Source: Prorocentrum cordatum (Eukaryota). Taken from it: a stretch of DNA of 54,609 nt. Below, piece by piece: positions 6,851 through 45,015 of the stretch. Location of the stretch: the NCBI GenBank assembly GCA_963575745.1, contig CAUYUJ010000224.1, forward strand, positions 62,001 to 116,609, read 5' to 3'. A program made the position numbers and the translations under genes. The notes under the pieces were generated by a model. The model did no database searches. It saw only the letters and a program-made list of their open reading frames with translations, and was not told the DNA's origin. Numbering within the stretch: the stretch's first letter is position 1; each line of letters starts with the position of its first letter.

Positions 6851-7750
6851 GTGCTTTAGCTTCCTTTGGGACCCCAGAAGTCCCGACCCTTTCTCGACGG
6901 CGGGCTCCTCGTATTGGGCTGTTGTGTCAACGCCCTGGGACCCAGCGAGGCCCGTGTTGAAAAAAATATCCTGGCGAAGGACCCAACCATATGCAGTTGT
7001 GAGTACCGCAACTGTGAGTATCTTCTTCGGTGACGTTCGCGAACTGTATGAGGGGTATGCCGAAATGTGGCGGGGTACACAACGCAAAGGAATACGATAG
7101 GTCTGATTATGAAAATTTGAACGCGGGTGAGTCAGAGCGCGAGGGAGTCTGAGTGTGAATGGGTATGCGCGCGAGTGAATATATTTGCACGATGCGATCA
7201 TGGCTACGCCTGCTGTAAATGTATATGAATGTGAATGGCTCGAGCATGCCTGTCCGAACACTCGTGACACTGGCCGCGGCCGCCGCAGGCAGCCTCCGCG
7301 GGAGCCCCGACGGCAGCGCCCGCACGCCGCGACGCCCATGTCGGCACGCCCCTTGCAAGGATCGCGCCCGTTTTCGTCCCTTCATTTCCTCCCTCTTTGC
7401 CCGCGTACTCCAAAAATCCAAAGCTGGAGGCGCAGCGCAGCGCGGAGTCCCCGCGACGCGCGCCGGTCGCCCCAGGCGGGGTCCCAGCGACGCGCGCGGG
7501 TCGTCCGCTGCGCGGAGCAGAGAAAGCTGGCTAGCTAACTGGCTGGCTGATTGCGGGCAAGGCTCTGACCGCTGGGCAGAGCGACCACGGGCGAACGAGG
7601 CGCCGGGCAAAACGCAGCGCGGAGTTCCCGCGACGCGCGCCGGTCGCCCCGAGAGGGCCCCAGCGACGCGCGCGGGTCGTCCGCGGCGCGAGGACGAACA
7701 ATTAGTCGGGCAGTCGAGAGAAGGCGCGGCTCGGGCGGGCGCTCCTCAGG

Positions 7751-9311
7751 TCAGGCCTCGCGGATCAACTCGGTGAAGCCGAGCTCCCTGGCGAGGGCCG
7801 TCGCCCCCCTCCTGCACCGCTTCGCGCGCGCCGCAAACTGCTCCAGCTGCCTCCGCAAGCCCCCCAGCGGTCCTGCCAGAAAGAACTCGACGCGCGGCGC
7901 CCGCATGAGCAGGAGGTCCTCGTGGCGCGTGGCGCGCGAGAGCAGCGCATAGAGCTCCAGCCACCAATCGTCGCCCTCCTTCTTGCCGTTCCCGACCTCG
8001 CGGCGGCCGCAGTCCAGGATCACGCCTGGGCGACGTCGGCCGAGGGAGCAGTGCGCCGGGCAGCCGACGGCCCAGGGCGAGTCCACAGGACCGAGGTCTA
8101 GCCGCGGACTGCTCGCGCCCCGGAGGTCTGGCCGCCCCCGGAGCTCCGCCCCCCCGCCCCGTCGCCTTCTCGCATGGTGCGCCCCTGGCACGCCACCGTG
8201 GCGATGACCCTGCCGTGCGAGAACGGGAGGCCCGTCCGCGCGACCTTGGAGGTGCGGAAGGTGAACGGCTCCGACGTGCGGGGCTCGATGAACACCAGCG
8301 GGCCCGCGAGGTCCCCCGTGAGGCTGTCGTCGTGGCGCTTCAGGTCGTCCACGAAGGGCGCGCTCGCGTACTTCTCCATGCGCACCCAGAACCCCAGCGG
8401 CAAGCGCTTCAGGTAGATCCTCTTCCCCCCCTCTCTCTCGGCTCACTCGACGTCGTCTCGATTTCGAGGGCCCACGACGATGTGCACGATCTGCCCCTCG
8501 GCATCCCTGACGAGGCCGTTCTTGAGGTCGAGCGCTTCCAGGAGCCGGATCCGCATGCCAACGTGCACCGGGAGCAGCCCGTGCATGCCACCGGAATTCT
8601 TCGGGTTGGCACAGTTCATCATCTTGGCGGCGTCCTTGGCGCTCATCGTCGGCGCAGACCTGTCGGCGGCTTGCACGAGGAAGAGGGGCTTCTTCAGGAC
8701 GTCTGCGTCCCGCTGAGCACGCATGTTCATCCACCGCGCCACGGTGTCCCAGTAGAACCCGATCACGTGGCCGTTCTGGAACCTCTCCTCCCGGAGCCGG
8801 CGATCATCGGATTTCAGCTGCATGGCGTTCCACGTGGCCCGGATGGCCGGAGGGACCTGCTTCCCCAGTTTGCGCAGGAACGCCATGAGATCTCGGAGCT
8901 CGGTGTCCTTGAAGCGGTTGGACGCCTGGAGCTCGCAGCACAGCGGCGTGCTGCAGAAGATCCTCATCACTGCCTGGCACTCTGGGACGAGGTTGATGCC
9001 CGCCGCCGCCAGTTCCTCGAAGCTGGAGATGAGCGACACCTTGCCTCCCGTCGGCTTCAGCTGCAGGAAATCCCCCAGGTGGATCACGATGGGCATCCGG
9101 CCGAAGGCGCCGCCGACCTGGTCGTACTCCCCCTCCTCCGCGCCCCACTCGGCCTTGCGTCCCAGGTAGGACCGGAACGCCAGCATGTTGTACAGGTCGG
9201 GCGAGGTCATGCTCACCTCCTCCAGGATCAAGCACCTGACCGCCTCCCACGTGTCCTGCAGCGCTTTCAGCTTGCCCCCCGCGGGTATGTCCTTGTTCCT
9301 GAAGGACTGCA
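7751..9311 (-). pseudogene. PIF1-family (SF1B) DNA helicase, C-terminal part, N-terminally truncated
   Basis: Motif II LILEEVSM, III GDFLQLKP, IV QASNRF, LPVHVGMRIRL..LDLKNGLV, V IATVACQGRT, VI LYALLSRAT. One in-frame TGA at 8445-8443; one intron 8026-8165. Walker A and any Rep domain are absent, with the 90-bp array in their place. Confidence 0.85.
8026..8165 (-). other. 140-nt GC-AG intron with terminal inverted and direct repeats (introner-like)
   Basis: Minus strand GAAG|GCGACG...CGTCGCCCAG|GCGTG. Removal joins the two frames into CQGRTMREGVILDCG. AGGCG is repeated at both junctions; GGCGACG/CGTCGCC is an inverted repeat. Confidence 0.75.
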
Positions 9312-11940
9312 CGAAATGGGTGTGCGGGACGCATGCGGGCACACCCACTGGGACCTTCGGTGGAGCTCCCTGTTGGGGCCACGAAACGTCTGAGGGGTGT
9401 GCCGAATTGGGTGTAGGTGACGCGTGCGGGCACACCCACTGCGACCTTCGGTGGAGCCCCCATATGGGGCCACGAAACGTGCGAGGGGTGTGCCGAAATG
9501 GGCGCGCGGGACGCATGCGGGCACACCCACTGGGACCTTCGGTGGAGCCCCCTATGGGGCCACGAAACGTGCGAGGGGTGTGCCGAAATTAGCGTGCGGG
9601 ACGCATGCGGGCACACCCACTGGGACCTTCGGTGGAGCCCCCATATGGGGCCACGAAACGTGTGAGGGGTGTGCCGAATTGGGTGGGGGTGACGCGTGTG
9701 GACGGTGGCACTGGGGCCTTCGGTGGAGCTCCCTATGGGGCCACGAAACGTGTGAGGGGTGTGCCGAACTGGATGGGGGTGACGCATGTGGACAGTGGCA
9801 CTGGGGCCTTCGGTGGGGCTCCCTATGGGGCCACGAAGCGTCTGAGGGGTGTGCCGAATTGGGTGTAGGTGACGCATGCGGGCGGTGGCACTGGGGCCTT
9901 CGGTGGAGCTCGCTATGGGGCCACGAAACGTGTGAGGGGTGTGCCAAAGTGGGCGGGGGTGACGCATGTGGACGGTGGCACTGGGGCCTTCGGTGGAGCT
10001 CCCTGTGGGGCCACGAAACGTGTGAGGGGTGTGCCGAATTGGGTGTAGGTGACGCATGCGGGCGGTGGCACTGGGGCCTTCGGTGGAGCTGCCTATGGGG
10101 CCACGAAACGTGTGAGGGGTGTGCCGAATTGGGTGTAGGTGACGCATGCGGGCGGTGGCACTGGGGCCTTCGGTGGAGCTCCCTATGGGGCCACGAAACG
10201 TCTGAGGGGTGTGCCGAATTGGGTGTAGGTGACGCATGCGGGCGGTGGCGGTGGCACTGGGGCCTTCGGTGGAGCTCCCTATGGGGCCACGAAACGTGTG
10301 AGGGGTGTGCCGAATTGGGTGTAGGTGACGCATGCGGGCGGTGGCACTGGGGCCTTCGGTGGAGCTCCCTATGGGGCCACGAAGCGTCTGAGGGATGTGC
10401 CGAATTTGGTGTAGGTGACGCATGCGGTCGGTGGCACTGGTGCCTTCGGTGGGGCTCCCTATGGGGCCACGAAACGTATGAGGGGTGTGCCGGATTGGGT
10501 GTGCGGGACGCATGCGGGCACACCCACTGGGACCTTCGGTGGAGCCCCCTATGGGGCCACGAAACGTGCGAGGGGTGTGCCGAAATGGGCGTGCGGACGT
10601 AGGCGGGCACACCCACTGGGACCTTCGGTGGAGCTGCCTGTGGGGCCACGAAACGTGTGAGGGGTGTGCCGAATTGGGTGTAGGTGACGCATGCGGGCGG
10701 TGGCACTGGGGCCTTCGGTGGAGCTCCCTATGGGGCCACGAAGCGTCTGAGGGGTGTGCCGAATTGGGCGTGGGTGACGCATGCGGGCGGTGGCACTGGG
10801 GCCTTCGGTGGAGCTCCCTATGGGGCCACGAAACGTCTGAGGGGTGTGCCGAATTGGGTGTAGGTGACGCATGCGGGCGGTGGCACTGGGGGCCTTCGGT
10901 GGAGCTCCCCATTGGGCCACGAAACGTGTGAGGGGTGTGCCGAATTGGGTGTAGGTGACGCATGCGGGCGGTGGCACTGGGGCCTTCGGTGGAGCTCCCT
11001 ATGGGGCCACGAAACGTGTGAGGGGTGTGCCGAATTGGGTGTAAGTGACGCATGCGGGCGGTGGCACTGGCCTTCGGTGGGCTCCCTATGGGGCCACGAA
11101 ACGTGTGAGGGGTGTGCCGAAATGGGTGTGCGGACGCATGCGGGCGGTGGCACTGGGGCCTTCGGTGGAGCTCCCTATGGGGCCACGAACGTGTGAGGGG
11201 TGTGCCGAATTGGGTGTGGGGTGTGCACGACTTGGGTGTAGGTGACGCATGCGGGCGGTGGCACTGGGGCCTTCGGTGGAGCTCCCTATGGGCCACGAAG
11301 CGTCTGAGGGGTGTGCCGAATTGGGTGTGGGGACGCATGCGGGCGGCAGCACTGGGGCCTTCGGTGGAGCTCCCTGTGGGGCCACGAAACGTGTGAGGGG
11401 TGTGCCGAATTGGCGTATGAGTTACGCATGCGGGCCGCCGGCACTGGGCCATTCGGTGGAGCTGCTATGGGGCCACGAAACGTGTGAGGGTGTGCCGAAT
11501 TGGGTGTAGGTGACGCATGCGGGCGGTGGCACTGGGGCCTTCGGTGGAGCTCCCTATGGGGCCACGAAACGTCTGAAGGGGTGTGGCCGAATTGGGTGTA
11601 GGTGACGCATGCGGGCGGTGGCACTCGGGCCTTCGGTGGAGCTCCCTATGGGGCCACGAAGCGTCTGAGGGGTGTGCCGAATTGGGTGTAGGTGACGCAT
11701 GCGGGCGGTGGCACTGGGGCCTTCGGTGGAGCTCCCTATAGGGCCACGAAACGTGTGAGGGGTGTGCCGAATCGGGTGTAGGTGACGCATGCGGGCGGTG
11801 GCACGGGGGCCTTCGGTGGAGTTCGCTATGGGGCCACGAAGCGTCTGAGGGGCGTGCCGAATTGGGCGGGGGTGACGCATGCGGGCGGTGGCACTGGGGC
11901 CTTCGGTGGAGCTCCCTATGGGGCCACGAAACGTGTGAGG
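9312..11940 (+). repeat. 90-bp tandem array (~29 units) inside element copy A
   Basis: Main unit ggggccacgaaacgtgtgaggggtgtgccgaattgggtgtaggtgacgcatgcgggcggtggcactggggccttcggtggagctccctat (90 nt), interspersed with a ...gtgcgggacgcatgcgggcacacccactggga... variant. Confidence 0.95.
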
Positions 11941-12019
11941 GATGACGGCAGCGATGATGGCGACGATTCTGATGACAGCGATGATGATGATGATGATGAC
12001 GATGATGGTGATGATGATG

Positions 12020-12668
12020 CCCTCAGCTTCGGGCCGTGGTGCTTCTGGCCAGCAGGGCCCGCAGCGCAGTTGAGCGTTTTGCGAGCAGACGGGCTCTGGC
12101 GTCGACGGCACGTCGCGCCGCAGTTGCCGAGACGGTAGCGGCAGTGAGGAGATTGCAATGGAGAGGAGACAATCAGAAGCAGACACGGGCGCGCGAGAGA
12201 GAACAATACGAGATTCAGCCGAGAGTTCGGACCACGACAGGGGCAATGAACGCAGATGCTTAGCGGCAGCGGTGGCTAAAATAGGACAGATCATGTAGTG
12301 GCGAAGGTCATCTCCGCCGACTGCATTGCATCCAGCTCTGCACGTTTGACATCCCTGCCGAAATCTTCGGGATGTACACCAAGCGTTACACAAACTTCTG
12401 AACACAGCACAAGTTACGAAAGTCGGGAGATGCTGACTTATCACGCCTAACCGAATTGCACACACATCAGCGTCATGCATGTTAGCATCAGGAAGCAGGT
12501 GGAGAATACGACGAAAGAGAGGAGGCACGAGCGAGGGGGCAGGGAAAGACGCACGCAAGAAGCAAGAAATTAGCCTTTGAATATCGAGCCTAGCTACATC
12601 AGGTATGCGACGATGCAATTTGGGCAGGCTACAGATATGATTAGAATTGCTATAGAGTTGATGGAAGA
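12020..12668 (-). mobile_element. 5'-truncated non-LTR retrotransposon (LINE) 3' fragment in a (CAT)n/(GAT)n tract
   Basis: VFRSLCNAWCTSRRFRQGCQTCRAGCNAVGGDDLRHYMICP resembles the C-terminal Cys/His zinc-binding region of LINE ORF2. Flanked by (GAT)n at 11941-12019 and ~12670-12843. Confidence 0.65.
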
Positions 12669-14313
12669 TGCGATGATGGTGATGATGATGGTCGTGAGGA
12701 TTATGACGATAATGGTGATGACGATGATGATGACGACGATGATAGTGATGATGACGACGATGGTGATGATGACGACCATGATGGTGCTGATAATGATGAC
12801 GATGACGATGACGATGATGATGGCGATGACGATGATGATGATGAGAGGGAGGAGGGAGGAGGGGGGAGGAGGAGGGGGCAGCGGGAGGAAGGAAGGAAGG
12901 AGACGCGGGGCACTGTCTCTTCAAAACGAGGACCCAACACCACAGGATGGTTGGGAAGAATCCAGGCCTCTGGGGAGAAGCGGCCTGGCGTCCGAAGAGC
13001 GTCGCCACCAGAAGAGGGCGGCCCGGGGTCCGGCTTCGCGTTGGACGGCTGGGATGGGATACACAGTGGGCGGTGGCGGCTGGGAGGCATCGTGGAGCTT
13101 CGCGTTGGGCGGCGCTTGGGCGGCTTCGCGTTGGGCTGGGAGGGGGAGGGGGGGTCCCCTCGTGGGGCCTGACCTCCCCAGTGGCATCCTGGCGGTGCGG
13201 AACAGGAAACCACGACGGGCAGCTTTTGGTAACTCCTGGAGCCCTTTGCCGGGCCCCGGGAGCGTCAAAGTACAACCCCTGGTGGCACGCAGACGGGGGA
13301 GGGGAGAAGGGGGAAGGCTTCTTGAAAGCCCTCCCCCCTCCCCCCTACCCTCCTCTGCGCGTGACCGAAGCCCGAGACGAAAAACCAGTCCCCAGGAAAA
13401 GGTCCAGACCCCTGGGTAGCCGTGCCGTAAAAAAATGGCGTCGGATGGTTGGGCCTCTCGAGGCGCGTTCTGACCAGAACTTCGGGTCGGATCCAGCCGC
13501 GGTGACGTTGGCGCCCCAGGAGGCCCAACGGCATCCAAAAGCATAGATTCCCGATGCGATGGGGAGAGGACGCCACAAGAAAGCTGGAAACATACATGGC
13601 TAGATTCGCATGTGGAATTAACAAGAGGCCACGCGCTGGATGCATATGCGGAAGCCTGGCGCGCGCGGCCACAGAAGAGCCGAGCGCTGGGAACACCTGC
13701 GGCCACATGTGTACCCGGCTCTTGTCCAGGCGGCCCTCGTCGTGCTTATTCAACTTCCGGGCACACGTTATCTTTTCCTCGGGGAGGAGGCCAGCACCAG
13801 GACAGACAACGCATGCCCGTGTCCCGGCCACCTAATGTGTATGCGGCTTCTCGGGGGCGTCCATGCGGGCGGCGTCCATGCGGGGGCCACGAGTCACGGC
13901 CAGAGACAGGTGCGCGGCCCAAGGGGGGTGACCAGGGGACGCACTGAAAAAGCAAGAGGAGGCCATGAGATCCGGACAGACATCGTGGCCCCAGCCACGA
14001 GATTCACCCCCCTGGTCATCACCCCCCTCCTGGCCGCCCCCGCGCTTCCTGGCACTCGTTACCCAGTCCCCTCGCGGAGGAGGCTGCCTCCAGGACAAAC
14101 CACGCAGGCCCGCGCCCTCCGAGCCCCTGCCAACAAGGAGGGCGCCGCCTGGGGCTCTCGGTGCCCCTGGAGGCACCCAGAGACCTCCGCGGGGCCCCGC
14201 GGGGACGCCCCGGCCGTGCCGTGCCGTGACGACTTGCGAGTCAGCTTCTGGCACCGCGTGGATCGCTCAGCCCTGATCGGCCGCGGCTTCCCGATAGCGC
14301 CGATCGCTTGATA

Positions 14314-14511: not shown

Positions 14512-14789
14512 ATGCGTACGCACTGGCCGGTCCCGGGCCACTGGCGACTTTCAACCATGACCCCGCCCAGGCTGCCGTCGCCGCCGCGCCAGCACGACAC
14601 GAAACAACCGGAGGCCCCGTCGGCACACAAATTATCCCGGCAAAGCAACCTAACAGCGATGTGTAGGAGCATATCTGGAAGCATTCCCCTTAAGATTCAG
14701 ATGAGAATCCAGTTGTAGAATTCTGCTGTTCTCGCAGTCGTAGTCGCATTCGCGATGACAGTCGCAGTGGCAACGGCAGTCGCAGTCAC

Positions 14790-16144
14790 AGCCTCAGCCT
14801 CAGCCTGCCTCAGCCTCAGCCTCAGCCTGCCTCAGCCTCAGCCTGCCTCAGCCTCAGCCTCAGCCTGCTTCAGCCTCAGCCTCAGTCTGCCTTCAGCCTC
14901 GGCCTCAGCCTCAGCCTGCCTCAGCCTCAGCCTGCATCAGCCTCAGCCTCAGCCTCAGCCTGCCTCAGCATCAGCCTGCCTCAGCCTCAGCCTCAGCCTG
15001 CCTCAGCCTCAGCCTCAGCCTGCTTCAGCCTCAGCCTCAGTCTGCCTTCAGCCTCGGCCTCAGCCTCAGCCTGCCTCAGCCTCAGCCTGCATCAGCCTCA
15101 GCCTCAGCCTCAGCCTGCCTCAGCATCAGCCTGCCTCAGCCTCAGCCTCAGCCTGCCTCAGCCTCAGCCTCAGCCTCAGCCTGCTTCAGCCTCAGCCTCA
15201 GTCTGCCTTCAGCCTCGGCCTCAGCCTCAGCCTGCCTCAGCCTCAGCCTGCATCAGCCTCAGCCTCAGCCTCAGCCTGCCTCAGCATCAGCCTGCCTCAG
15301 CCTCAGCCTCAGCCTCCTCAGCCTCAGCCTGCTTCAGCCTCAGCCTCAGTCTGCCTTCAGCCTCGGCCTCAGCCTCAGCCTGCCTCAGCCTCAGCCTGCA
15401 TCAGCCTCAGCCTCAGCCTCAGCCTGCCTCAGCCTCAGCCTGCATCAGCCTCAGCCTCAGCCTCAGCCTCAGCCTGCCTCAGCCTCAGCCTGCCTCAGCC
15501 TCAGCCTCAGCCTGCCTCAGCCTCAGCCTCAGCCTGCTTCAGCCTCAGCCTCAGTCTGCCTTCAGCCTCGGCCTCAGCCTCAGCCTGCCTCAGCCTCACC
15601 CTGCATCAGCCTCAGCCTCAGCCTCAGCCTGCCTCAGCATCAGCCTGCCTCAGCCTCAGCCTCAGCCTGCCTCAGCCTCAGCCTCAGCCTGCTCAGCCTC
15701 AGCCTCAGTCTGCCTTCAGCCTCGGCCTCAGCCTCAGCCTGCCTCAGCCTCAGCCTGCATCAGCCTCAGCCTCAGCCTCAGCCTGCCTCAGCATCAGCCT
15801 GCCTCAGCCTCAGCCTCAGCCTGCCTCAGCCTCAGCCTCAGCCTGCTTCAGCCTCAGCCTCAGTCTGCCTTCAGCCTCGGCCTCAGCCTCAGCCTGCCTC
15901 AGCCTCAGCCTGCATCAGCCTCAGCCTCAGCCTCAGCCTGCCTCAGCATCAGCCTGCCTAGCCTCAGCCTCAGCCTGCCTCAGCCTCAGCCTCAGCCTGC
16001 TTCAGCCTCAGCATCAGTCTGCCTTCAGCCTCAGCCTCAGCCTCAGCCTGCCTCAGCCTCAGCCTGCCTCAGCCTCAGCCTCTGCATCAGCCTCAGCCTC
16101 AGCCTGCTTCAGCCTCAGCCTCAGTCTGCCTTCAGCCTCGGCCT
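14790..16144. repeat. (CCTCAG)n satellite with ~155-bp higher-order period
   Basis: Marker tctgccttcagcctcggcc recurs at ~14886, 15041, 15202, 15350, 15555, 15709, 15865, 16125. Confidence 0.9.
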
Positions 16145-16393
16145 GAGTCCTGGGAACTCGAAGACCACGAAGTGGCCTACAATTGTCTCCGGGCATTCAA
16201 AATCATGCCCAGGAATAGAGTTCTGGGAACTCGAAGACCACGAAGTGGCCTACAGTTGGCTCCGGGCATTCAAAATCATGCCCAGGAATGGAGTTCTGGG
16301 AACTCGAAGAACACGAAGTGGCCTACAGTTGGCTGCGGGCATTCAAAATCATGCCAGGGAATGGAGTTCTGGGAGCTCGAAGACCACAAAGTG
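16145..16393. repeat. 73-bp tandem repeat x~3.4
   Basis: gagt(t/c)ctggga(a/g)ctcgaaga starts at 16145, 16218, 16291, 16364. Confidence 0.9.
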
Positions 16394-18999: not shown

Positions 19000-19232
19000 C
19001 CTCCTCAGCCCTCCCCTTCCTCCTCCTCCTCCTCCTCCTCCTCCTCCTCCTCCTCCTCCTCCTACTCCTCCTCCTCCTCCTCCTCCTCCTCCCCCCTCTC
19101 TCCTCCTCCTCCTCCTCTCCTCTCCTCCTCCTCCTCCTCCTCCTCCTCCTCATCCTCCTCCTCCTCCTCCTCCTCCTCCTCCTCCTCCTCCTCCTCCTCC
19201 TCCTCCTCCTCATCCTCATCTCATCCTCATCC

Positions 19233-19278
<46 letters not shown>

Positions 19279-19436
19279 TCATCATCATCACACCATCATC
19301 ATCATCTCATCATCATCTCATCATCAGCATCAGCATCAGCATCAGCATCAGCATCAGCATCAGACATCATCATCACCATCAACCACTCACCATCCCATAT
19401 CACATCATCATCATCAGCTCATCATCATCATCATCA

Positions 19437-19483
<47 letters not shown>

Positions 19484-19507
19484 GCATCATCATCTCATCA
19501 TCATCAG

Positions 19508-19541
<34 letters not shown>

Positions 19542-20914: not shown

Positions 20915-21688
20915 ATGATGCTGCTGGTTGCGGCGGCGTTCGTGGCGTCGCGGTGATGGTGCTGGTCGCAGTCGTGGCATCGTGATGCTGCTTGCGGTCG
21001 CAGTCGAGGTCGTGGTGCTGCTGGTCGGGAGCGCGGCGTACGTTGAGGCGTTGCTGGTCGCAGTCCTTGTGGTGCTGCTGGTCTAGCAGCACTCGTCGCG
21101 CTGCTGCTGGACGCCGTTGTAGTGCACGTGGTCGCTGGGAAGGACGTCGGGTGGGGCACGGAATAGGGCGTCGTGGTGGTGATGATGACGATCGCATTCG
21201 TGGTGATAGTGGTGCTGATGGTCGCAGTCGCGGTGCGGGTCGCGATTCTGCTGGTCGCGGTCGAGGTGGCGCTGCTGGTCGTGGTGGTGGTTTGGCTGGT
21301 GGTCGCAGTCGTGGTGCTCGTGGTGGTGCTGGTGGTGCTGGTCGAGGTCTTGGCGGTGGTGCTAATGATCACCGTCATGGAGTGCGTCGTGGTGTTGCTG
21401 GCCCTCCTCCTCCTCCTCCTCCTCCTCCTCCTCCTCCTCCTCCTCCTCCTCCTCCTCCTCCTCTTCCTCCTGTTTCCTCCTCCTCCTCCTCCTCCTCCTC
21501 CTCCTCCTCCTCCTCCTCCTCCTCCTCCTCGTCGTCTTCCTCCTCCTCCTCTTCTCTCCCATCCTCCTCCTCCTCCCCTCCTCCTCCTCCTCCCTCCCTC
21601 CCATTCTGCTCCTCCTCCGCCTCCTCCTCCTCCTCCTCCTCCTCCTCCTCCTCCTCCTCCTCCTCATCATCCTCATCATCATCATCTC

Positions 21689-34770: not shown

Positions 34771-35790
34771 GCTTCTGAGAAGCCCCGCCGCGTTCTGAGG
34801 AGGCCTTCTCCCTCTGACTACCCCCCACTGGCCTCGCCTCCGAGAAGGACCGCCCGTGGGAAAGGCACGAAGCCAGAGATCTGGGCTTGGCTCTGCCCGA
34901 AGTCCTCCGGGTCTGCCATCGTTTCGTGGCGTTGGCTCCAGGAGATCTCGAGCTTTTCCCCCAGGCAAGCTTTTCATCCTGAGCCGTTTCTTTGACGGCC
35001 CTGGGGCCGGAAAGCAGCCTCCTGGAGCCCTAAACGACTAAAATCTGGACGTCACGATTTTCATGTAACGCCGAATGGGTTCCGAGCAGATGAGGTTGGA
35101 GGATCGCGCCGCCTCCCCGACGCATCGCCGATGCATCGGCGACGTCGGCAATGAATCGAGGCCGCCAGCATGGAAAAAAAACAAGCTCCACATCAAGCCG
35201 CATCGTCGCGATGCATCGGCGATGAGGCGCGATCCTCCGACCCCATCTACTTCGACACCATTTGGGAAGCCTACACCCCCTCGGAAAAGCAGTGCAACTT
35301 TCGCAAGTCGTGTCGAACAATCGTCCCGGGGAACTCCCCGAGGGTAGTTTTTCATGCCGGGCTCGTCTCTGCCGGCCACGGCGCCCGAAAACGGCCCCCA
35401 GAGGCCAGAAAACTGCGACGAACACGAGCAGATCGACGACGAGAGCTGCACTACCTTTTAGCAGGGCACCAGGGATGCCCGAAAGCCTCCAGCACCCCGC
35501 AGCAGCGCTCCCCGTGGAGCAGCGCCTGCCCCGGGGGCAGCCCCGGCACGCCGAGGCCCTGCTGGTGCTGCCCGCGAGCGTCGCAGCCGCTGTCGCCGCC
35601 CGCGTGCAGCACCGCCGCCGCCGTGCCGAAGGCCCGCCGAGGCCCCCTCGGCGTCGCCAGGCGTGTCCGACTCGACTCTTTTTCCATCGGCCCTGGGCCG
35701 AAGAACACCCTCCAAGAACATGAGACCCTCCGTCGACCGAAGCACACAGAATATGCAAGGGTACCCTCCCCAGAATGCACAAGAACATCC

Positions 35791-37921
35791 AATTAGCCTG
35801 GCGAAGGACCCAACAATATGCAGTTGTGAATGCCGCAATTGTGCTAGGTGGTGGCGGACGCATGCGGGCGGTGCCACTGGGACCTTCGGTGGAGCTCCCT
35901 ATGGGGCCACGAAACGCTGTACTGGGTGGGTGAGACGCGGTCAGCAAGGGCTGTGCTGCGTGGTGGCGGACGCATGCGAGCGGTGCCACTGGGACCTTCG
36001 GTGGAGCTCCCTATGGGGCCACGAAGCGCTGTACTGGGTGGGTGAAACGCAGGCAGGGAGCAAGGGCTGCGCAGGGTGGTGGCGGACGCATGCGGGCGGT
36101 GCCGCTGGGACCTTTGGTGGAGCTCCCTATAGGGCTACGAAGCGCTGTTCTGGGTGGGTGAAGCGCAGGGAACAAGGGCTGTGCTGGGTGGTGGCGGACG
36201 CAAGCGGGCAGTGCCACTGGGACCTTTGGTGGAGCCCCCTATGGGGCCACGAAACGTGCGAGGGGTGTGCCAGAATGGGGTGTGGAACCGCATGCCAGCG
36301 CAGCCACTGGGGCCTTCGGTGGAGCTCCCTATGGAGCCACGAAACGTGTGAGGGGTGTGCCGAAATGGGGGGTGGAACCGCATGCGAGCGCAGCCACTGC
36401 GGCGTTCGGTGGAGCTCCCTATGGGGCCACGAGACGTGTGAAGGGCGTGCCGAAGAAGGGGGTGGAACCGCATGCGAGCGCAGCCACTGGGGCCTTCGGT
36501 GGAGCTCTCTATGGGGCCACGAACCGTTTGAGGGGTGTGCCGAAACGAGGGGGGAATCACATGCGAGCGCAGCCACTTGGGCGTTCGATGGAGCTCCCCA
36601 TGGAGCCACCCACGAAGCGTGTGAGGGGTGTGCCAGAATGGGGGGTGGAACCGCATGCAGGCGCAGCCACTGGGGCCTTCGGTGGAGCTCCCTATGGGGC
36701 CACGAAACGTGCGAGGGGTGTGCCAGAATGGGGGGTGGAACCGCATGCGGGCGCAGCCACTGGGGCCTTCGGTGGAGCTCCCTATGGGCCACGAAACGTG
36801 TGAGGGGTGTGCCAGAATGGGGGGGGAACCGCATGCGGCGCAGCCACTGGGGCCTTCGGTGGAGCTCCCTATGGGGCCACGAAACGTGTGAGGGGTGTGC
36901 CAGAATGGGGGGTGGAACCGCATGCGGCGCAGCCACTGGGGCCTTCGGTGGAGCTCCCTATGGGGCCACGAAACGTGTGAGGGGTGGCCAGAATGGGGGG
37001 TGGAAACCGCATGCGGGCGCAGCCACTGGGGCCTTCGGTGGAGCTCCCTATGGGGCCACGAAACGTGTGAGGGGTGTGCCAGAATGGGGGGTGGAACCGC
37101 ATGCGGGCGCAGCCACTGGGGCCTTCGGTGGAGCTCCCTATGGGGCCACGAAGCGTGTGAGGGGTGTGCCAGAATGGGGGGTGGAACCGCATGCGGGCGC
37201 AGCCACTGGGGCCTTCGGTGGAGCTCCCTATGGGGCCACGAAACGTGTGAGGGGTGTGCCAGAATGGGGGGTGGAACCGCATGCGGGCGCAGCCACTGGG
37301 GCCTTCGGTGGAGCTCCCTATGGGGCCACGAAACGTGTGAGGGGTGTGCCAGAATGGAGGGTGGAACCGCATGCGGGCGCAGCCACTGGGGCCTTCGGTG
37401 GAGCTCCTTATGGGGCCACGAAACGTGTGAGGGGTGTGCCAGAATGGGGGGTGGAACCGCATGCGGGCGCAGCCACTGGGGCCTTCGGTGGAGCTCCCTA
37501 TGGGGCCACGAAACGTGTGAGGGGTGTGCCAGAATGGGGGGTGGAACCGCATGCGGGCGCAGCCACTGGGGCCTTCGGTGGAGCTCCCTATGGGGCCACG
37601 AAACGTGTGAGGGGTGTGCCAGAATGGGGGGTGGAACCGCATGCGGGCGCAGCCACTGGGGCCTTCGGTGGAGCTCCCTATGGGGCCACGAAACGTGTGA
37701 GGGGTGTGCCAGAATGGGGGGTGGAACCGCATGCGGGCGCAGCCACTGGGGCCTTCGGTGGAGCTCCCTATGGGGCCACGAAACTTGTGAGGGGTGTGCC
37801 AGAATGGGTGTGGGAGGGGGAGGAGGGGGGAGGAAGGGGAGGAGGAGGAAGGAGGAGGAAGGAGGAACGCGGGGCGACGTCTCTTCAAAACGAGGACCCA
37901 ACACCACAGGATGGTTGGGAA
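35791..37921 (-). mobile_element. Helentron-like element, copy B (non-autonomous: termini + array only)
   Basis: Left aattagcctggcgaaggacccaacaatatgcagttgtgaatgccgcaattg; right tctcttcaaaacgaggacccaacaccacaggatggttgggaa; (GGA)-rich tract at 37812-37866. Confidence 0.8.
35845..37810 (+). repeat. 90-bp tandem array (~21 units) inside copy B
   Basis: Main unit ggggccacgaaacgtgtgaggggtgtgccagaatggggggtggaaccgcatgcgggcgcagccactggggccttcggtggagctccctat; the first ~3 units are longer (~112-115 bp). Confidence 0.95.
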
Positions 37922-38810: not shown

Positions 38811-38915
38811 AACGACTACGACTACGACTATGACTACGATTGTGACTACGACTACGACTACGATTACGACTAACACTTCGTACGCTAAGACTACTTCGAC
38901 TAGTATTTCTACTAT

Positions 38916-38989
<74 letters not shown>

Positions 38990-39016
38990 ATACTACCACT
39001 ACTACCACGACTACTA

Positions 39017-39059
<43 letters not shown>

Positions 39060-39060
39060 G

Positions 39061-39135
<75 letters not shown>

Positions 39136-39145
39136 GTTGCTGCTG

Positions 39146-39199
<54 letters not shown>

Positions 39200-39496
39200 T
39201 TACTACTACTACNNNNNNNNNNNNNNNNNNNNNNNNNNNNNNNNNNNNNNNNNNNNNNNNNNNNNNNNNNNNNNNNNNNNNNNNNNNNNNNNNNNNNNNN
39301 NNNNNNNNNNNNCTAATACTACTACTACTACTACTACCGATCACTAAAACCATTCATGCTACGACTACTAACTACATTACTAACTTCTACTTCTACTACT
39401 ACTACTACTACTACTACTGCTGCTGCGCTGCTGCTACTACTACTGGAACACTACTACTACTACTACTCTACTACTACTTCTACTACTACTACTACG

Positions 39497-39529
<33 letters not shown>

Positions 39530-39601
39530 GCTACTACCACTACTACTACTACTACTACTACCACTACTACTACCACTCCTTCCACTACGACGAGTTCTAA
39601 G

Positions 39602-39651
<50 letters not shown>

Positions 39652-39765
39652 ACTTCTTCTACTATGTCTACTACTACAACTACTACTGCTACTACTACTA
39701 CTACTACTACTACTACCACTACTACCACTACTACCACTACCACTACGACTACGACTACGACTACG

Positions 39766-39796
<31 letters not shown>

Positions 39797-39895
39797 TTAC
39801 TACTACTACTACTACTACTACTACTACGACTACTACTACTACTACGACTACTACTCCTACTCCAACCCCTACTACTCCTACTACTACTACTACTT

Positions 39896-39948
<53 letters not shown>

Positions 39949-40032
39949 GCGACTACTATCACTCAAACCATTCCTGCTTCGACTACTACTACGACTACGA
40001 CTTCTACGTCTACTACTACTGCTGCTACTACG

Positions 40033-40096
<64 letters not shown>

Positions 40097-40429
40097 TTAC
40101 CACTACTACTACTACTGCTACTTCTACTACTACTTCTACGACTTCTACTACTACTATCTACTACTACTACTACTATTACTACTACTACTACTACTACTAC
40201 TGCTACTACTACTACTAACTAACCTCTACTACTACTACTACTACTACTACTACGTACTACTACTCTACGACTACGACTACGTACACCTACTACTACTACT
40301 ACTAAGCACCGCTACTACTACTACTACTACTACTAACTACTACTACTACTCTACTACTACTACTACTACTCTACTACTACTACGACTACTACCACTACTC
40401 CTACTCCTCGACTACTACTATCCCATACT

Positions 40430-40461
<32 letters not shown>

Positions 40462-40656
40462 TTACTACTACTACTACTATTACTACTACTACTACTACTA
40501 CGACTACCACTTCTACTACTACTACTACTGCTGCTGCTGCTACGACTACTACCACTACTCCTACGCCGACTACTATTAATACTACTACTACGAATACTAC
40601 TAATCATACTACCGCTACTGCGACTGCTAGTGCTACTGCTACGACTGCTACTACCA

Positions 40657-40717
<61 letters not shown>

Positions 40718-40823
40718 GACTTCTACTTCTATTTCTACTTCTACTACTACTGCTACCACTACTACTATTACCCCTAAGACCACCACCTTTACTCCTACGA
40801 CAACTACTACTACTACTACTACG

Positions 40824-40879
<56 letters not shown>

Positions 40880-40939
40880 ACACTACAACTAACTACTTCT
40901 ACTACAACTACTACTGCTACTACTACTACTACTACAACA

Positions 40940-41018
<79 letters not shown>

Positions 41019-41181
41019 GCTGCTGCTACTACTGCTACGACTACTACTTCTACTACTACAACTACTACTTCTACTACCACTACTACTGCTATTACTACTA
41101 CTACTACTACTACTACTACTAGGACTACTACTGATACTACTACTACTAACTACTACTACTACGACTACGACTACTACTACG

Positions 41182-41254
<73 letters not shown>

Positions 41255-41256
41255 AG

Positions 41257-41290
<34 letters not shown>

Positions 41291-41308
41291 TTATTACTAC
41301 TACTACTT

Positions 41309-41364
<56 letters not shown>

Positions 41365-41368
41365 TCTT

Positions 41369-41446
<78 letters not shown>

Positions 41447-41447
41447 T

Positions 41448-41486
<39 letters not shown>

Positions 41487-41487: not shown

Positions 41488-41658
41488 AGGGTCACACTTG
41501 ACTTATGGACTGGGAGGTTTGGGTATAGGTTTGGGTTTGGGTTTGGGTTCGCTCGGTTTCGGTGGGACGCTTGCATATTGGATCTAACATGGAACTCAAG
41601 GGGGAAGGCTTCTTAGGAATTCAAAAGATTTAATATATAGAACAAAAAAAACAACATC

Positions 41659-44600
41659 AAATTAGCCTGACGAGGGACCCAACCATATGCAGGTGTGAGT
41701 ACCGCAATAGTGATTCACTTTTTCGGTGGCGATCCCTATGAGGCAACGAACCGTGCTAGGGGTGTGCCGACATGAGTGGCGTGGTACACAACGCGAACGA
41801 TAACGATTTATCTGAGTACGTAGGGAGACTGAGCGCGGGTGAATCTGCGCGCGTGCGTGCGAGCGAGTCTACGCGCATGAATGCGAATATGACAAAGCGT
41901 GGTGCACTTGTGCATGACTGTCAATAGTTTGACAATGGCTGCCTCTGAGTACTCGTGACGCTGGGCGCTTGGCCGCCGCAAGGAGCTCCCCCGGGACTCC
42001 CCGACGGCATCGCCCGCGCGCCGCGACGCCAATGTCGGCGCGCCCCCCCGCGAGGATCGCGCCCGCTTCCTCCCCTTCCTTTACCCCCTCTTTGCCCGCG
42101 CACTCAAAAGTCCAAGGATGCGGGCGCAGCCCAGAGCGGAGCCCCCGCGACGCGCGCAGGTCGCCCCGGAGGGGTCCCAGCGACGCGCGCGGGTCGTCCA
42201 CTGCGCGGAGCAAAGAGAGCTAGCTGGCTGGCTGATAGCGGGCAAGGCTCTTGCCGCTGGGCAGAGCGACGACGGGCGAGCGAGGCGCTGGGCAGACCGC
42301 AGCACGGAGCCCCCGCGACGCGCGCAGGTCGCCCCGGAGGGGTCCCAGCGACGCGCGCGGGTCGCCCGCTGCGCGGAGCAAAGAGAGCTAGCTGGCTGGC
42401 TCGGACCTGCTGTGGGGCTCCATATGGGGCCACGTAACGCTGTACTGGGCAAGGGAGACGCATGCGGACTGCGCCACGGGGACCTTCGGTGGAGTTCCCT
42501 ATGGGGCCACGAAACGTATGAGAGGTGTGCCGAAATGAATGGCGGGGACGCATGCGGACTGTGCCACTGGTACCTTCGGCGGAGCTCCACTGGGGCCACG
42601 AAACGTGTGAGGGGTGTGCCGAAATGAGTGGCGGGGACGCATGCGGACTGCGCCACGGGGACCGTCGGTGGAGTTCCTCTGGGGCCACGAGACGTGTGAG
42701 GTGTGTGCCGAAACGAATGGCGGGAACGCATGCGGACTGTGCCACTGGGACCTTCGGCGGAGCTCCTGTGGGGCCACGAAACTTGTGAGGGGCGTGCCGA
42801 CATGAACGGCGGGAACGAATGCGGACTGTGCCGCGGGGACCTTCGGCGGAGCTCCTATGGGGCCACGAAACGTGTGAGGGTGTGCTGAAATGAATGGCGG
42901 GGACGCATGCGGACTGTGCCACCGGGACCTTCGGCGGAGCTCCCATGGGGCCACGAAACGTGTGAGGGGTGTGCCGAAATGAATGGCGGGGACGCGCGCG
43001 GACTGTGCCACCAGGACCTTCGGCGGAGCTCCTATGGGGCCACGAATCCTGTGAGGGGTGTGCCGAAATGAGCGGCGGGGACGCATGCGGACTGTGCCAA
43101 TGGGACCTTCGGCGGAGCTCCTGTGGGGCCACGAAACGTGCCAGGGGCGTGCCGACATGAGTGCGGGGACGTATGCGGACTGTTCCACTGGAACCTTCGG
43201 CGGAGCCCCTATGGGGCCACGAAGCGCGCGAGGGGTGTGCCGAAATGAATGGCGGGGGCGCATGCGCACTGTGCCACTGGGACCTTCGGCTGAGCTCCTA
43301 CGGGGCCACGAAACGCGTGAGGGGTGTGCCGAAATTACACACCCACAAGGACCTTCGGTGGAGCTCCCTATGGGGCCACGAAACGCGCGAGGGGTGGGCC
43401 GAAATGGGTGCGCGGGGCGCATGCGCACACACCCGCTGAAACCTTTGGTGGAGCTCCCTATGGGGCCACGAAAACTGTGAGGGGTGTGCCAAAATGGGTG
43501 CGCGGGACGCATGCGGGCACACCCACTGGGACCTTCGGTGGAGCTCCCTATGGGGCCACAAAACGTACGAAGGGTGTGCCGAAATGGGCGTGGGGGACGC
43601 ATGCGGGCACCCCTTCTGGGACCTTCGGTGGAGCTCCCTATGGGGCCACGAAACGCGTGAGGGGTGTGCCGAAATGGGTGTGCGGGACACATGCGGGCAC
43701 ACCCACTGGGACCTTCGGTGGGGCTCCCTATGGGGCCACGAAACGTGTGAGGGATGTGCCGTAATGGGTGTGCGGGACGCATGCGGGCACACCCACTGGG
43801 ACTTTCGGTGGAGTTCCCTATGGGGCCGCGGAACGCGCGGGGGATGTGCCGAAATGTGTGTGCGGGACGCATGCGGGCACACCCACTGGGACTTTCGGTG
43901 GAGCTCCCTATGGGGCCACGAAACGTGCGAAGGGTGTACCGAAATGGGTGTGCGGGACGCATGCGGGCACACCCACTGGGACCTTCGGTGGAGCTCCCTA
44001 TGGGGCCACGAAACGTGTGAGGGGTGTGCCGAAATGGGTGTGCGGGACGCATGCGGGCACACCCACTGGACCTTCGGTGGAGCTCCCTATGGGGCCACGA
44101 AACGTGTGAGGGATGTGCCGAAATGGAGTGTGCGGGACGCATGCGGGCACACACACTGGGACCTTCGGTGGAGCTCCCTATGGGGCCACGAAACGTGTGA
44201 GGGGTGTGCCGAAATGGGTGTGTGTGCGGGACGCATGCGGGCACACCCACTGGGACCTTCGGTGGAGCCCCCTATGGGGCCACGAAACGTGTGAGGGGTG
44301 TGCCGAAATGGGTGTGCGGGACGCGATGTACCGAAATGGGTGTGCGGGACGCATGCGGGCACACTCACTGGGACCTTCGGTGGAGCTCCCTATGGGGCCA
44401 CGAAGCGTGTGAGGGGTGTGCCGAAATTGGTGTGCGGGACGCATGCGGGCACACCCACTGAGACCTTCGGTGGAGCTCCCTATGGGGCCACGAAACGTGT
44501 GAGGTGTGTGCCGAAATGTGTGTGCGGGACGCATGCGGGCACACCCACTGAGACTTCGGTGGAGCTCCCTATGGGGCCACGAAGCGTGCGAAGGGTGTGC

Positions 44601-45015
44601 CAAAATGGGTGTGCGGGACGCATGCGGGCACACCCACTGCGACCTTCGGTGGAGCTCCCTATGGGGCCACGAAACGTGCGAGGGGTGTGCCGAGATGTGT
44701 GTGCGGGACGCATGCGGGCACACCCACTGGGACTTTCGGTGGAGCCCCCTATGGGACCACGAAACGTGCGAGGGGTGTGCCGAAATGGGTGTGCGGGACG
44801 CATGCGGGCACACCCACTGGGACCTTCGGTGGAGCTCCCTATGGGGCCACGGAACGTGTGAGGGGTGCGCGGAAATGGGCGATGACGATGATGATGGTCG
44901 TCGTCGTCGGAGGAGGAGGAGGAGGAGGAGAGGAGGAGAGGAGAGGAGAGGAGAAGAGGAGACGCGGGCCACCGTCTCTTCAAACGAGGACCCAACACCA
45001 CAGGATGGTGGGGAA
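41659..45015 (-). mobile_element. Helentron-like element, copy C (non-autonomous)
   Basis: Left aaattagcctgacgagggacccaaccatatgcaggtgtgagtaccgcaa; 41661-42400 resembles 6967-7700 of copy A; right tctcttcaaacgaggacccaacaccacaggatggtggggaa; (GAT)/(GGA) tract at 44880-44960. Confidence 0.8.
42413..44880 (+). repeat. 89/90-bp tandem array (~27 units) inside copy C, two variant blocks
   Basis: 42413-43335: ..aaatgaatggcggggacgcatgcggactgtgccactggga..; 43335-44880: ..aaatgggtgtgcgggacgcatgcgggcacacccactggga.. Confidence 0.95.

What the first reader, a model, noticed from the sequence alone, without database searches (positions are those of the whole stretch)
6967..45015. The 90-bp 'satellites' are cargo of one Helentron/HINE-like rolling-circle element family (3 copies, one with a PIF1 helicase)
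Seen: all three arrays are bracketed by the same two termini in the same orientation. On the helicase (minus) strand the layout is 5'-TT CCCAACCAT CCTG TGGTGTTGGG TCCTCGTTTTGAAGAGA, then a (CCT)/(CAT) microsatellite, the 90-bp central repeats, an optional helicase plus 3' region, a CAGTTG..CAACTG hairpin, ATGGTTGGG, a short CCT-TCGCC-AGG hairpin and a T-run, with no TSD. Established: asymmetric subterminal inverted repeats, terminal hairpins, T-rich targets, an internal microsatellite and central tandem repeats characterise Helentron/Helitron2 elements and their DINE-1/HINE derivatives, and Helitrons encode PIF1-like helicases. Inference: a dinoflagellate Helentron-type family disperses and amplifies this satellite. 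I know of no description of it but cannot verify novelty.
Basis: partly seen in the sequence, partly recalled or inferred. Interest (0 to 1): 0.85.

Follow-up and report, generated by a model that had tools for sequence, protein, structure and literature searches.

The report
Satellite-carrying Helitron2-like transposons in a dinoflagellate
Three stretches of a 90-base tandem repeat each sit inside a defective copy of one rolling-circle (Helitron-type) transposon family, a known way of spreading satellite DNA in animals that is seen here in what looks like a dinoflagellate genome.

Summary
The window has exactly three copies of one element, all on the minus strand: A 6960-12957, B 35781-37921, C 41644-45015. 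Each has the same 5' end, the same 3' end and a 90-bp array between them. The flanks are unrelated, so this is not a segmental duplication.

Every satellite unit in the window lies inside these copies. Copy A's "helicase" is a dead fragment. It covers the last ~520 of ~2620 residues, has no Walker A motif, and carries an in-frame TGA. It is 74-77% identical to a 2623-aa protein that has DUF6570, a Helitron Rep domain (HUH, YxxxYxxK) and a PIF1-like helicase.

A metagenome contig 90% identical in DNA reads on upstream of A's breakpoint with intact helicase. It also shares the 3' UTR-like region that copy C retains. So A, C and B form a nested deletion series.

In three independent public DNA runs the 3' end is far more abundant than the interior. 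It is directly joined to the satellite unit in 44, 18 and 12 contigs.

The end structure matches Helitron2/HINE definitions. No relative has an AP endonuclease, so "Helentron" in the strict sense is not supported. The 3' hairpins fold no better than shuffled sequence. Verdict: a new member of a known kind.

The parts
6960..12957 (-). Copy A: a non-autonomous element that retains a RepHel fragment
   Evidence: Both termini are present. The flanks are unrelated to those of B and C.
12916..12957 (-). Copy A 5' end (LTS): TT, a 9-bp 5' inverted repeat CCCAACCAT, and its hairpin partner
   Evidence: Identical to copy B over 40 nt. The hairpin folds with z -2.32.
12672..12902 (-). Copy A microsatellites, (CCT)-like then (CAT)n on the element strand
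   Evidence: TRF rows 12672-12844 and 12845-12902.
12020..12671 (-). Copy A variable segment between two CAT microsatellites, of unknown origin
   Evidence: No match elsewhere in the window. No match to the RepHel proteins.
9312..11941 (-). Copy A array of 90-bp units (about 29 units, with a 270-bp higher-order period)
   Evidence: TRF. Mean unit identity within the array is 0.88.
7751..9311 (-). RepHel pseudogene fragment: helicase from just before Walker B to the stop codon. It has an in-frame TGA at 8443-8445 and a 140-nt GC..AG intron at 8026-8165.
   Evidence: Sequence and translation. 77% identity to P0035 residues 2102-2504 and 88% to residues 2513-2623. All protein alignments start at 9309-9312 or inside that point.
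7033..7750 (-). 3' UTR-like region shared with copy C and with metagenome contig L001. It includes a degenerate satellite unit at 7038-7075.
   Evidence: 76.4% identity to copy C over 741 bp. The L001 alignment runs to 7449. The degenerate unit is seen.
6960..7032 (-). Copy A 3' end (RTS): imperfect hairpin, the 3' inverted repeat ATGGTTGGG, a short palindrome, then ATA plus a T-run
   Evidence: Depth and loose ends in other runs are bounded at 6960-6963 and at 7010/7032.
35781..37921 (-). Copy B: termini, microsatellite and array only. It has 112-bp variant units at 35840-36253 and 90-bp units up to 37808.
41644..45015 (-). Copy C: termini, the 3' UTR-like region (41729-42401), the array (about 42402-44879) and microsatellites (44880-44961)

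Best explanation
The three arrays are the central tandem repeats of three old, defective copies of one rolling-circle transposon family. The family belongs to the Helitron2/Helentron group (HLE2) and is built like the HINE/DINE-1 non-autonomous elements of animals.

The autonomous partner is not in this window. By inference it is an element of about 8 kb or more. It encodes a RepHel protein of roughly 2600 residues with DUF6570, an HUH/two-tyrosine Rep nuclease and a divergent PIF1-like helicase. Some relatives add a ubiquitin hydrolase domain. None has an AP endonuclease.

Inferred mechanism, taken from what is known of Helitrons:
1. Rep nicks at the T-flanked 5' end, where the 9-bp repeat folds into a hairpin.
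2. The helicase peels off one strand in the 5'-to-3' direction.
3. Transfer stops at the 3' end, which is marked by the complementary 9-bp repeat, a small palindrome and a T-run.
4. The strand re-inserts between Ts without a target duplication.

Shown here: internal deletions produced copy A (breakpoint inside the helicase, at the array), copy C (only the 3' UTR-like region left) and copy B (ends and array only).

The 90-bp unit is related to the element's own 3' subterminal sequence. It was amplified in tandem, and each copy's array has since homogenised on its own. Each transposition therefore seeds a new satellite locus.
For: 1. Three copies have the same ends in the same orientation and unrelated flanks.
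2. 82 of 82 satellite-unit hits in the window lie inside the copies, all on the element strand.
3. The ends are better conserved than the interior. The first 42 nt of the 5' end are identical in A and B, and the 3' 47 nt are 91.5% identical between A and B. The A-C 3' region is only 76.4% identical.
4. The helicase fragment is 74-77% identical to P0035. P0035 has DUF6570 at 189-344, Helitron_like_N at 693-878, HUH at 873, YxxxYxxK at 1286 and Walker A at 2038. P0029 and P0053 also join Rep to a helicase that aligns to the fragment.
5. L001 is 90.4% identical in DNA to 9312-7449. It continues upstream with Walker A, and downstream it shares the region that copy C keeps.
6. Runs X1, X2 and X3 show zero depth left of 6942, then summed depth of 63576/33518/1971 over 6942-7023, against about 100-600/20-370/25-80 over 8336-9311.
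7. In the same runs, loose ends behind 7032 read the satellite unit in 44/18/12 contigs. Diverse or poly-A loose ends lie before 6960-6963.
8. The anatomy matches published definitions. Helitron2 has 8-15 bp asymmetric repeats, the 5' one 0-2 bp from the end and forming a hairpin, and the 3' one 20-30 bp from the end upstream of a hairpin (PMC3627910). HINEs have a subTIR, an IR, a microsatellite, central repeats and a right flank of about 60 bp (PMC4067079, PMC7492417).
9. DUF6570 and UCH are reported as HLE2-specific domains (PMC11417382, passages read).
10. Unit identity is 0.84-0.93 within arrays and 0.78-0.81 between them.
Against: - No full-length autonomous copy with these termini was seen. 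L001 ends before any terminus, and after window position 7449 it diverges into microsatellites.
- The window has only three copies. No whole genome was available, so there is no genome-wide census and no empty site.
- The 3' hairpins are not better than shuffled sequence, and the palindrome after the 3' repeat is only 3-4 bp.
- B and C have a different 3' tail from A, so the exact 3' end is not fixed.
- Depth from pooled contigs is not a copy number (caveat given).
- No RepHel phylogeny with labelled Helitron1/Helitron2/Helentron references could be built. HLE2 placement rests on the end structure and on domain markers taken from the literature.
- CCT and CAT microsatellites are common elsewhere in the window, so their presence alone is weak evidence.
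Confidence: 0.8

Rival explanations
1. The termini belong to some other, non-Helitron mobile element (a short-TIR cut-and-paste element or an unknown type). Copy A merely picked up, or landed in, a fragment of an unrelated Helitron-type gene.
For: No autonomous copy was seen with these ends. The 9-bp inverted repeats could be read as TIRs. The fragment is dead and truncated.
Against: - The region next to the helicase stop codon is shared by L001, which carries helicase, and by copy C, which has none. The RepHel 3' UTR and the element's 3' part therefore travel together.
- The repeats are asymmetric: 2 nt from one end and 22 nt or more from the other.
- No TSD is seen in 3 of 3 copies.
- No other transposase-like match was found in the copies (one search tests RepHel relatives only; one search found no Pfam hit in 14 ORFs elsewhere in the window).
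Confidence: 0.1
2. The arrays were spread by a process other than transposition, for example segmental duplication or excision and re-integration of circular satellite DNA. The shared junction sequences would then be simply part of the duplicated unit.
For: The copies are old and diverged (76% in the A-C 3' region). Two of the three lie only about 3.7 kb apart, and all three are in one orientation.
Against: - Homology stops sharply at both ends, and the flanks are unrelated.
- In other runs the sequence beyond the 3' end is diverse (agreement 0.49-0.57 at 6961-6963 in X3) or poly-A (X2).
- The ends are more conserved than the interior.
- The end structure is that of a known transposon class.
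Confidence: 0.06
3. The family is a canonical Helitron (HLE1) rather than an HLE2 element.
For: If the first T is counted as flank, the element begins TC. B and C have CTAA (a CTRR match) after the palindrome.
Against: - Copy A lacks CTRR.
- B and C share 9 more bases beyond CTAA.
- The flanking bases are T/T, not A/T.
- A 5' hairpin and paired 9-bp repeats are present.
- Relatives carry DUF6570, which is reported as an HLE2 marker (PMC11417382).
Confidence: 0.03

Closest known systems
HINE / DINE-1 non-autonomous Helentron-group elements (mite, Drosophila, mosquito; PMC4067079) and Cg_HINE of the Pacific oyster (PMC7492417)
   Same: The layout matches:
- a short 5' subterminal repeat 2 nt from the end, with a nearby complementary IR;
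- a microsatellite, then a variable segment, then central satellite-like tandem repeats;
- a right flank of roughly 60 bp holding the complementary repeat and a small palindrome;
- T-rich junctions with a variable number of Ts, and no TSD;
- deletion derivatives of a RepHel element.
   Different: - The host appears to be a dinoflagellate rather than an animal.
- The repeat is 9 bp rather than 11-15 bp.
- The relatives of the partner protein have no AP endonuclease.
- The microsatellites are trinucleotide.
- The arrays are long (2.0-2.6 kb) and GC-rich.
Helitron2 (Bao and Jurka 2013, PMC3627910); the Helitron2-like element of Symbiodinium microadriaticum (Heringer and Kuhn 2022, PMC8788227)
   Same: - Asymmetric terminal inverted repeats, with a 5' hairpin that uses the 5' repeat.
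- The 3' repeat lies about 22 nt from the end.
- The 5' base is T.
- The RepHel has no endonuclease.
- The host is a dinoflagellate in the 2022 case.
- Abundance is biased towards the 3' end, as described for the Chlamydomonas CRe elements.
   Different: - I could not test whether the S. microadriaticum protein belongs to the same family.
- The passages I read from those papers do not mention central satellite arrays in that element.
- The RepHel relatives found here are very long. They have 395-442 residues between the HUH and tyrosine motifs, against 167 in a fungal relative.
Canonical Helitron (HLE1) and cellular Pif1 helicases
   Same: All involve a PIF1-like SF1 helicase. The only significant solved-structure matches of the helicase profile are PIF1 proteins (E 2e-8 to 8e-6).
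   Different: - The termini are not of the TC...CTRR type, and insertion is not between A and T.
- The helicase is fused to a Rep domain in relatives.
- It is only distantly like solved Pif1 proteins (36 bits over about 100 residues), so a recent host-gene capture is unlikely.

Membership tests
HLE2 (Helitron2/Helentron group) element structure | [quoted passage not shown] | tested here: met
   CCCAACCAT lies 2 nt from the end, opposite ATGGTTGGG. Complementarity is 9/9 in A, 8/9 in B and 8/9 in C. The motif occurs 5 times in the window against 0.34 expected.
HLE2 (Helitron2/Helentron group) element structure | A 5' hairpin that involves the 5' repeat | tested here: met
   The predicted hairpin is present in 3 of 3 copies, with z -2.32, -1.88 and -1.66 against shuffles. 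The signal is modest.
HLE2 (Helitron2/Helentron group) element structure | The 3' repeat is subterminal (about 20-60 bp from the end) and followed by a palindrome | tested here: inconclusive
   The position fits: 22 nt from the end in A and about 28-34 nt in B and C. The palindrome is only 3-4 bp, and the 3' ends fold no better than shuffles.
HLE2 (Helitron2/Helentron group) element structure | Insertion between T and T in T-rich sites, with no target-site duplication | tested here: inconclusive
   Ts sit at both junctions and no TSD is seen in 3 of 3 copies. Other runs show a variable T-run. No empty site could be examined because no genome is held.
HLE2 (Helitron2/Helentron group) element structure | An autonomous partner that encodes RepHel (HUH and two-tyrosine Rep plus a PIF1-like helicase) and shares the termini | tested here: inconclusive
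   The fragment in A is 74-77% identical to a RepHel that has the Rep motifs. L001 links the intact helicase to the shared 3' region. No full-length copy with these termini was seen.
HLE2 (Helitron2/Helentron group) element structure | A DUF6570 domain in the transposase (marker proposed in PMC11417382) | tested here: met
   DUF6570 was found in 5 of the 7 relatives scanned, including P0035, and in 3 of the 10 scanned. The window's own fragment does not reach that part of the protein.
Helentron in the strict sense | An AP endonuclease domain in the RepHel protein | tested here: not met
   0 of 32 relatives scanned has an Exo_endo_phos-type hit (15, 7, 10). The window's ORF and P0035 both end right after the helicase.
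HINE/DINE-1-type non-autonomous element | SubTIR plus IR, microsatellite, central tandem repeats and a 3' subTIR plus palindrome, with no intact coding capacity | tested here: met
   All modules are present in this order in 3 of 3 copies. The only coding remnant is a truncated fragment with a stop codon.
Canonical Helitron (HLE1) | 5' TC, 3' CTRR after a hairpin, and insertion between A and T | tested here: not met
   Copy A ends in ATA plus a T-run. The flanking bases are T or C, G, T on the 5' side and C, G, G on the 3' side.
Cellular Pif1 (a captured host gene) | A stand-alone Pif1 helicase close to host or cellular Pif1 proteins and not linked to Rep | tested here: not met
   The closest full-length relatives carry Rep. 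A single-sequence search against solved structures found nothing. A profile search hits PIF1 only at 2e-8. No tree was built.
Cut-and-paste TIR transposon / MITE | Symmetric terminal inverted repeats with a fixed-length TSD | tested here: not met
   The repeats are asymmetric (2 nt against 22 nt or more from the ends), and no TSD is seen in 3 of 3 copies.

The most novel reading that the evidence does not exclude
This may be a dinoflagellate-specific branch of the Helitron2/Helentron group. Its giant RepHel has about 400 extra residues, including a Cys/His cluster, inserted between the HUH and tyrosine motifs, and a ubiquitin hydrolase in some members.

Its HINE-like offspring may be a main vehicle that seeds and spreads a 90-bp satellite across Prorocentrum-like genomes. 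They may be abundant enough to be conspicuous in ocean metagenomes. If so, part of the tandem-repeat load of dinoflagellate genomes is transposon-borne.
Probability: 0.45. Interest if true: 0.6.

Novelty: new member of a known kind. Interest (0 to 1): 0.45.

Why it matters
Dinoflagellate genomes are huge and rich in repeats, and their tandem repeats are poorly explained. This finding shows that at least one satellite travels inside a Helitron2-type element, as in oysters and flies. That gives a concrete and testable route for satellite dispersal in an alveolate.

It also extends HINE-type elements beyond animals, and it provides clean termini for annotating the family. The finding does not reveal a new mechanism.

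Tried and rejected
- Whole-genome search: not possible, because no genome is held for this window.
- Earlier-findings look-ups: three look-ups found nothing.
- Collection scans: the 5' end and the satellite core gave 0 matches in viral contigs and in genome contigs.
- Rfam: no family matched the window or copy B.
- Pfam on the window's own helicase pieces: 0 hits. Pfam on 14 large ORFs elsewhere in the window: 0 hits.
- Representative-library profile search (the first try failed on size): 1784 hits, but the best 150 were all close, mostly fragmentary family members. It gave no outgroup for a classification tree.
- Rep profile against solved structures: nothing meaningful, so no sequence-level link to a solved Helitron transposase.
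- RNA run X17: only 8 contigs were laid, three of them on the helicase. DNA carry-over cannot be excluded, so no claim of expression is made.
- L002 and L003, which are more distant relatives: no matching termini or satellite.
- Segmental duplication: rejected on unrelated flanks.
- Two compound (CCT)n-(TCA)n microsatellites at 19010-20433 and 21403-22492 were checked as possible opposite-strand element remnants. No terminus was found there.
Full report
**What is there**

Tandem Repeats Finder reports three arrays of a 90-bp unit at 9312-11941, 35840-37808 and 42457-44879. I read both sides of each array and lined up the ends on the minus strand. This gives three copies of one element: A 6960-12957, B 35781-37921 and C 41644-45015.

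The 40-nt 5' end is identical in A and B, with 0 matches expected by chance. In C it differs by one substitution and one single-base deletion. The 21-nt 3' core occurs three times with 0, 1 and 2 mismatches. Profile searches built from the three copies find exactly three hits for each end in the 54.6-kb window.

A profile of the satellite unit finds 82 hits, all on the minus strand. 80 lie in the three arrays. The other two are degenerate units at 7038-7075 and 41744-41781, next to the 3' ends of A and C. No satellite unit in the window lies outside an element copy.

**Not a duplication**

BLAST of each flank against the window finds no similarity between the flanks of different copies, apart from microsatellites. 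Homology stops within a base or two at the 5' end. At the 3' end it stops at the T-rich tail.

The ends are better conserved than the interior:
- 5' end, first 42 nt: identical in A and B.
- 3' end, 47 nt: 91.5% identical between A and B.
- Shared 3' region of A and C: only 76.4% identical over 741 bp.

**Anatomy**

On the element strand the order is:
1. TT.
2. The 9-bp repeat CCCAACCAT.
3. Its partner a few bases on, which forms a hairpin.
4. About 25 nt of conserved sequence.
5. A CCT-type microsatellite and then, in A and C, a CAT-type one.
6. In A only, a 650-bp segment of unknown origin.
7. The 90-bp array.
8. An optional interior.
9. A short imperfect hairpin.
10. The complementary repeat ATGGTTGGG.
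11. A 3-4 bp palindrome.
12. A T-rich tail.

The two 9-mers are complementary at 9/9 positions in A, 8/9 in B and 8/9 in C. The 5' hairpin folds somewhat better than shuffled sequence (z -2.32, -1.88, -1.66). The 3' ends do not (z -0.34, +0.84, +0.12). The CAGTTG..CAACTG stem is perfect only in A. B and C share a 13-nt tail after CCAGG that A lacks. There are therefore at least two 3'-tail variants.

**The helicase**

The minus-strand reading frame from 9311 to 7751 has no Pfam hit of its own. It does have strong relatives. The best is P0035, a 2623-residue protein that is 77% identical over 403 residues and 88% identical over the last 111 residues up to the shared stop.

P0035 carries these features:

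| Feature | Position in P0035 |
|---|---|
| DUF6570 | 189-344 |
| Helitron_like_N | 693-878 |
| HUH motif | 873 |
| YxxxYxxK motif | 1286 |
| Walker A | 2038 |

The motif names are recalled from the general Helitron literature. Two further proteins, P0029 and P0053, join a Rep domain to a helicase that aligns with the window's fragment.

Of the 37 relatives of the region upstream of the helicase, 25 have a precomputed Helitron_like_N domain. Of the 30 relatives of the Rep region, 28 have it. The named ones are 14 from Prorocentrum cordatum, one from Symbiodinium sp., one from Effrenium voratum and one from a fungus. This is the only basis here for calling the host a dinoflagellate.

The window's fragment begins just before Walker B. 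It lacks Walker A and everything upstream. It has an in-frame TGA at 8443-8445 and a 140-nt GC..AG intron at 8026-8165. Every protein alignment starts at 9309-9312 or inside that point, which is the junction with the array.

**A deletion series**

A metagenome contig, L001, is 90.4% identical in DNA to window 9312-7449. Upstream of the point that matches 9312, L001 continues in frame with the rest of the helicase, including GQGGSGKT. It has a lysine codon where the window has TGA. Copy A is therefore an internal-deletion derivative whose breakpoint abuts the array.

Downstream of the stop codon, L001 shares about 290 bp with A and also with copy C, which has no helicase. The 3' part of C thus descends from the 3' untranslated part of a RepHel gene. 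B keeps only the ends, a microsatellite and the array.

L001 then diverges into microsatellites and ends, so it does not show a terminus.

**Other data sets**

No public run holds more than 27% of the sampled words of 6860-9311. I laid the contigs of three DNA runs and one RNA run on that stretch at 85% likeness.

Summed contig depth along the stretch:

| Stretch | X1 | X2 | X3 | X17 |
|---|---|---|---|---|
| 6860-6941 (flank) | 0 | 0 | 0 | 0 |
| 6942-7023 (3' end) | 63576 | 33518 | 1971 | 3.5 |
| 3' part of helicase | thousands | thousands | tens to about 100 | 0 to about 2 |
| 8336-9311 | about 100-600 | about 20-370 | about 25-80 | 0 to about 3 |

The tool warns that this summed depth is not a copy number. 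The shape still fits many short derivatives that keep the 3' end.

Loose ends behind 7032 read on into the satellite unit in 44 (X1), 18 (X2) and 12 (X3) contigs. Loose ends behind 7009-7011 are diverse. Those before 6960-6963 are diverse in X3 (agreement 0.49-0.57) or poly-A in X2. This places the 3' boundary in the T-run and shows a variable T number. A further 379 loose-end rows were not shown by the tool.

**Array evolution**

Units are 0.88, 0.93 and 0.84 identical within arrays A, B and C, and 0.78-0.81 identical between arrays. About 55 nt of the unit is conserved and about 35 nt is variable (units outside 85-96 nt were dropped). A and C show a 270-bp higher-order period. Each array has therefore homogenised locally.

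**Comparison with known families**

The definitions come from passages I read in four papers.

- Helitron2 (PMC3627910): 8-15 bp asymmetric repeats. The 5' one is 0-2 bp from the end and forms a hairpin. The 3' one is 20-30 bp from the end, upstream of a hairpin. The 5' base is T.
- HINE/DINE-1 (PMC4067079): subterminal repeats, a nearby IR, a microsatellite, central repeats and a 3' palindrome. Targets are T-rich, with Ts that vary in number, and there is no target modification.
- Oyster Cg_HINE (PMC7492417, abstract and section 7): the same modules, carrying satellite-like arrays.
- HELIANO paper (PMC11417382): DUF6570 is a marker of the Helitron2/Helentron clade, UCH is enriched in two of its subgroups, and the endonuclease marks Helentrons.

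The element fits these definitions except for the weak 3' palindrome.

None of the 32 relatives I scanned has an endonuclease. Some have UCH at the N- or C-terminus. The family is therefore Helitron2-like and not Helentron in the strict sense.

The helicase profile's only significant solved relatives are PIF1 proteins, and weakly so (2e-8). A single-sequence search found none.

**Novelty**

PMC8788227 (passages read) already reports a Helitron2-like RepHel element without endonuclease in Symbiodinium microadriaticum. I could not test whether it is the same family.

Six searches of the held library returned no paper whose title or abstract start describes satellite-carrying HINE-type elements in dinoflagellates. 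Only the five papers cited here were opened, and none was read in full:
- 'Helitron' + 'dinoflagellate'
- 'Helentron' + 'HINE' + 'tandem repeats'
- 'Prorocentrum' + 'Helitron'
- 'dinoflagellate' + 'satellite DNA' + 'tandem repeat' + 'transposable element'
- 'Helitron2' + 'Symbiodinium'
- 'Helitron2' + 'terminal inverted repeats' + 'hairpin'

Subscription journals and Repbase are not covered, and I did not open any supplements. I rate this a new member of a known kind, of moderate interest.

Noticed in passing
window 38890-41486; 6424-6850; 54434-54609: Very long (ACT)n/(TAC)n microsatellites of one motif; the largest is about 2.6 kb. Two of them lie only 109 and 157 bp beyond the 3' ends of copies A and C. 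The short spacers between them and the elements are unrelated. This could be coincidence or a target preference.
   Followed up: partly
window 19010-20433 and 21403-22492: Two compound (CCT)n-(TCA)n microsatellites on the plus strand. They carry the same motif pair as the element's 5' part but have no element terminus nearby.
   Followed up: yes
proteins P0035, P0053, P0029, P0213 versus P0221: The dinoflagellate-type RepHel relatives have 395-442 residues between the HUH and YxxxYxxK motifs, including a conserved Cys/His cluster. A fungal relative has 167. This is an unusually large insertion in the Rep nuclease.
   Followed up: partly
proteins P0018, P0043, P0143, P0170: A ubiquitin C-terminal hydrolase domain is fused to the RepHel. 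It is N-terminal in some proteins and C-terminal, after the helicase, in others.
   Followed up: no
window 8026-8165 (minus strand): A 140-nt GC..AG intron lies inside the transposon's helicase gene. It is also present in metagenome contig L001 and absent from the protein P0002.
   Followed up: partly
L002 about 2310-2500: A more distant RepHel relative has a run of 13-14 bp tandem repeats in the region downstream of its stop codon. Tandem repeats in the 3' part may be common in this family.
   Followed up: no
window 45073-45286: About 27 copies of an 8-bp unit (TAGGGCTA) start 58 bp beyond the 5' end of copy C, followed by GGGCACCC-type repeats.
   Followed up: no
window 14789-16393: A 1.36-kb (CAGCCT)n array is followed directly by 3.4 copies of a 73-bp repeat.
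   Followed up: no
window 7436-7514 / 7613-7690 and 42137-42233 / 42305-42401: The 3' UTR-like region contains an internal direct duplication of about 80-100 bp. The two copies are 91% identical in A and 98% identical in C.
   Followed up: no
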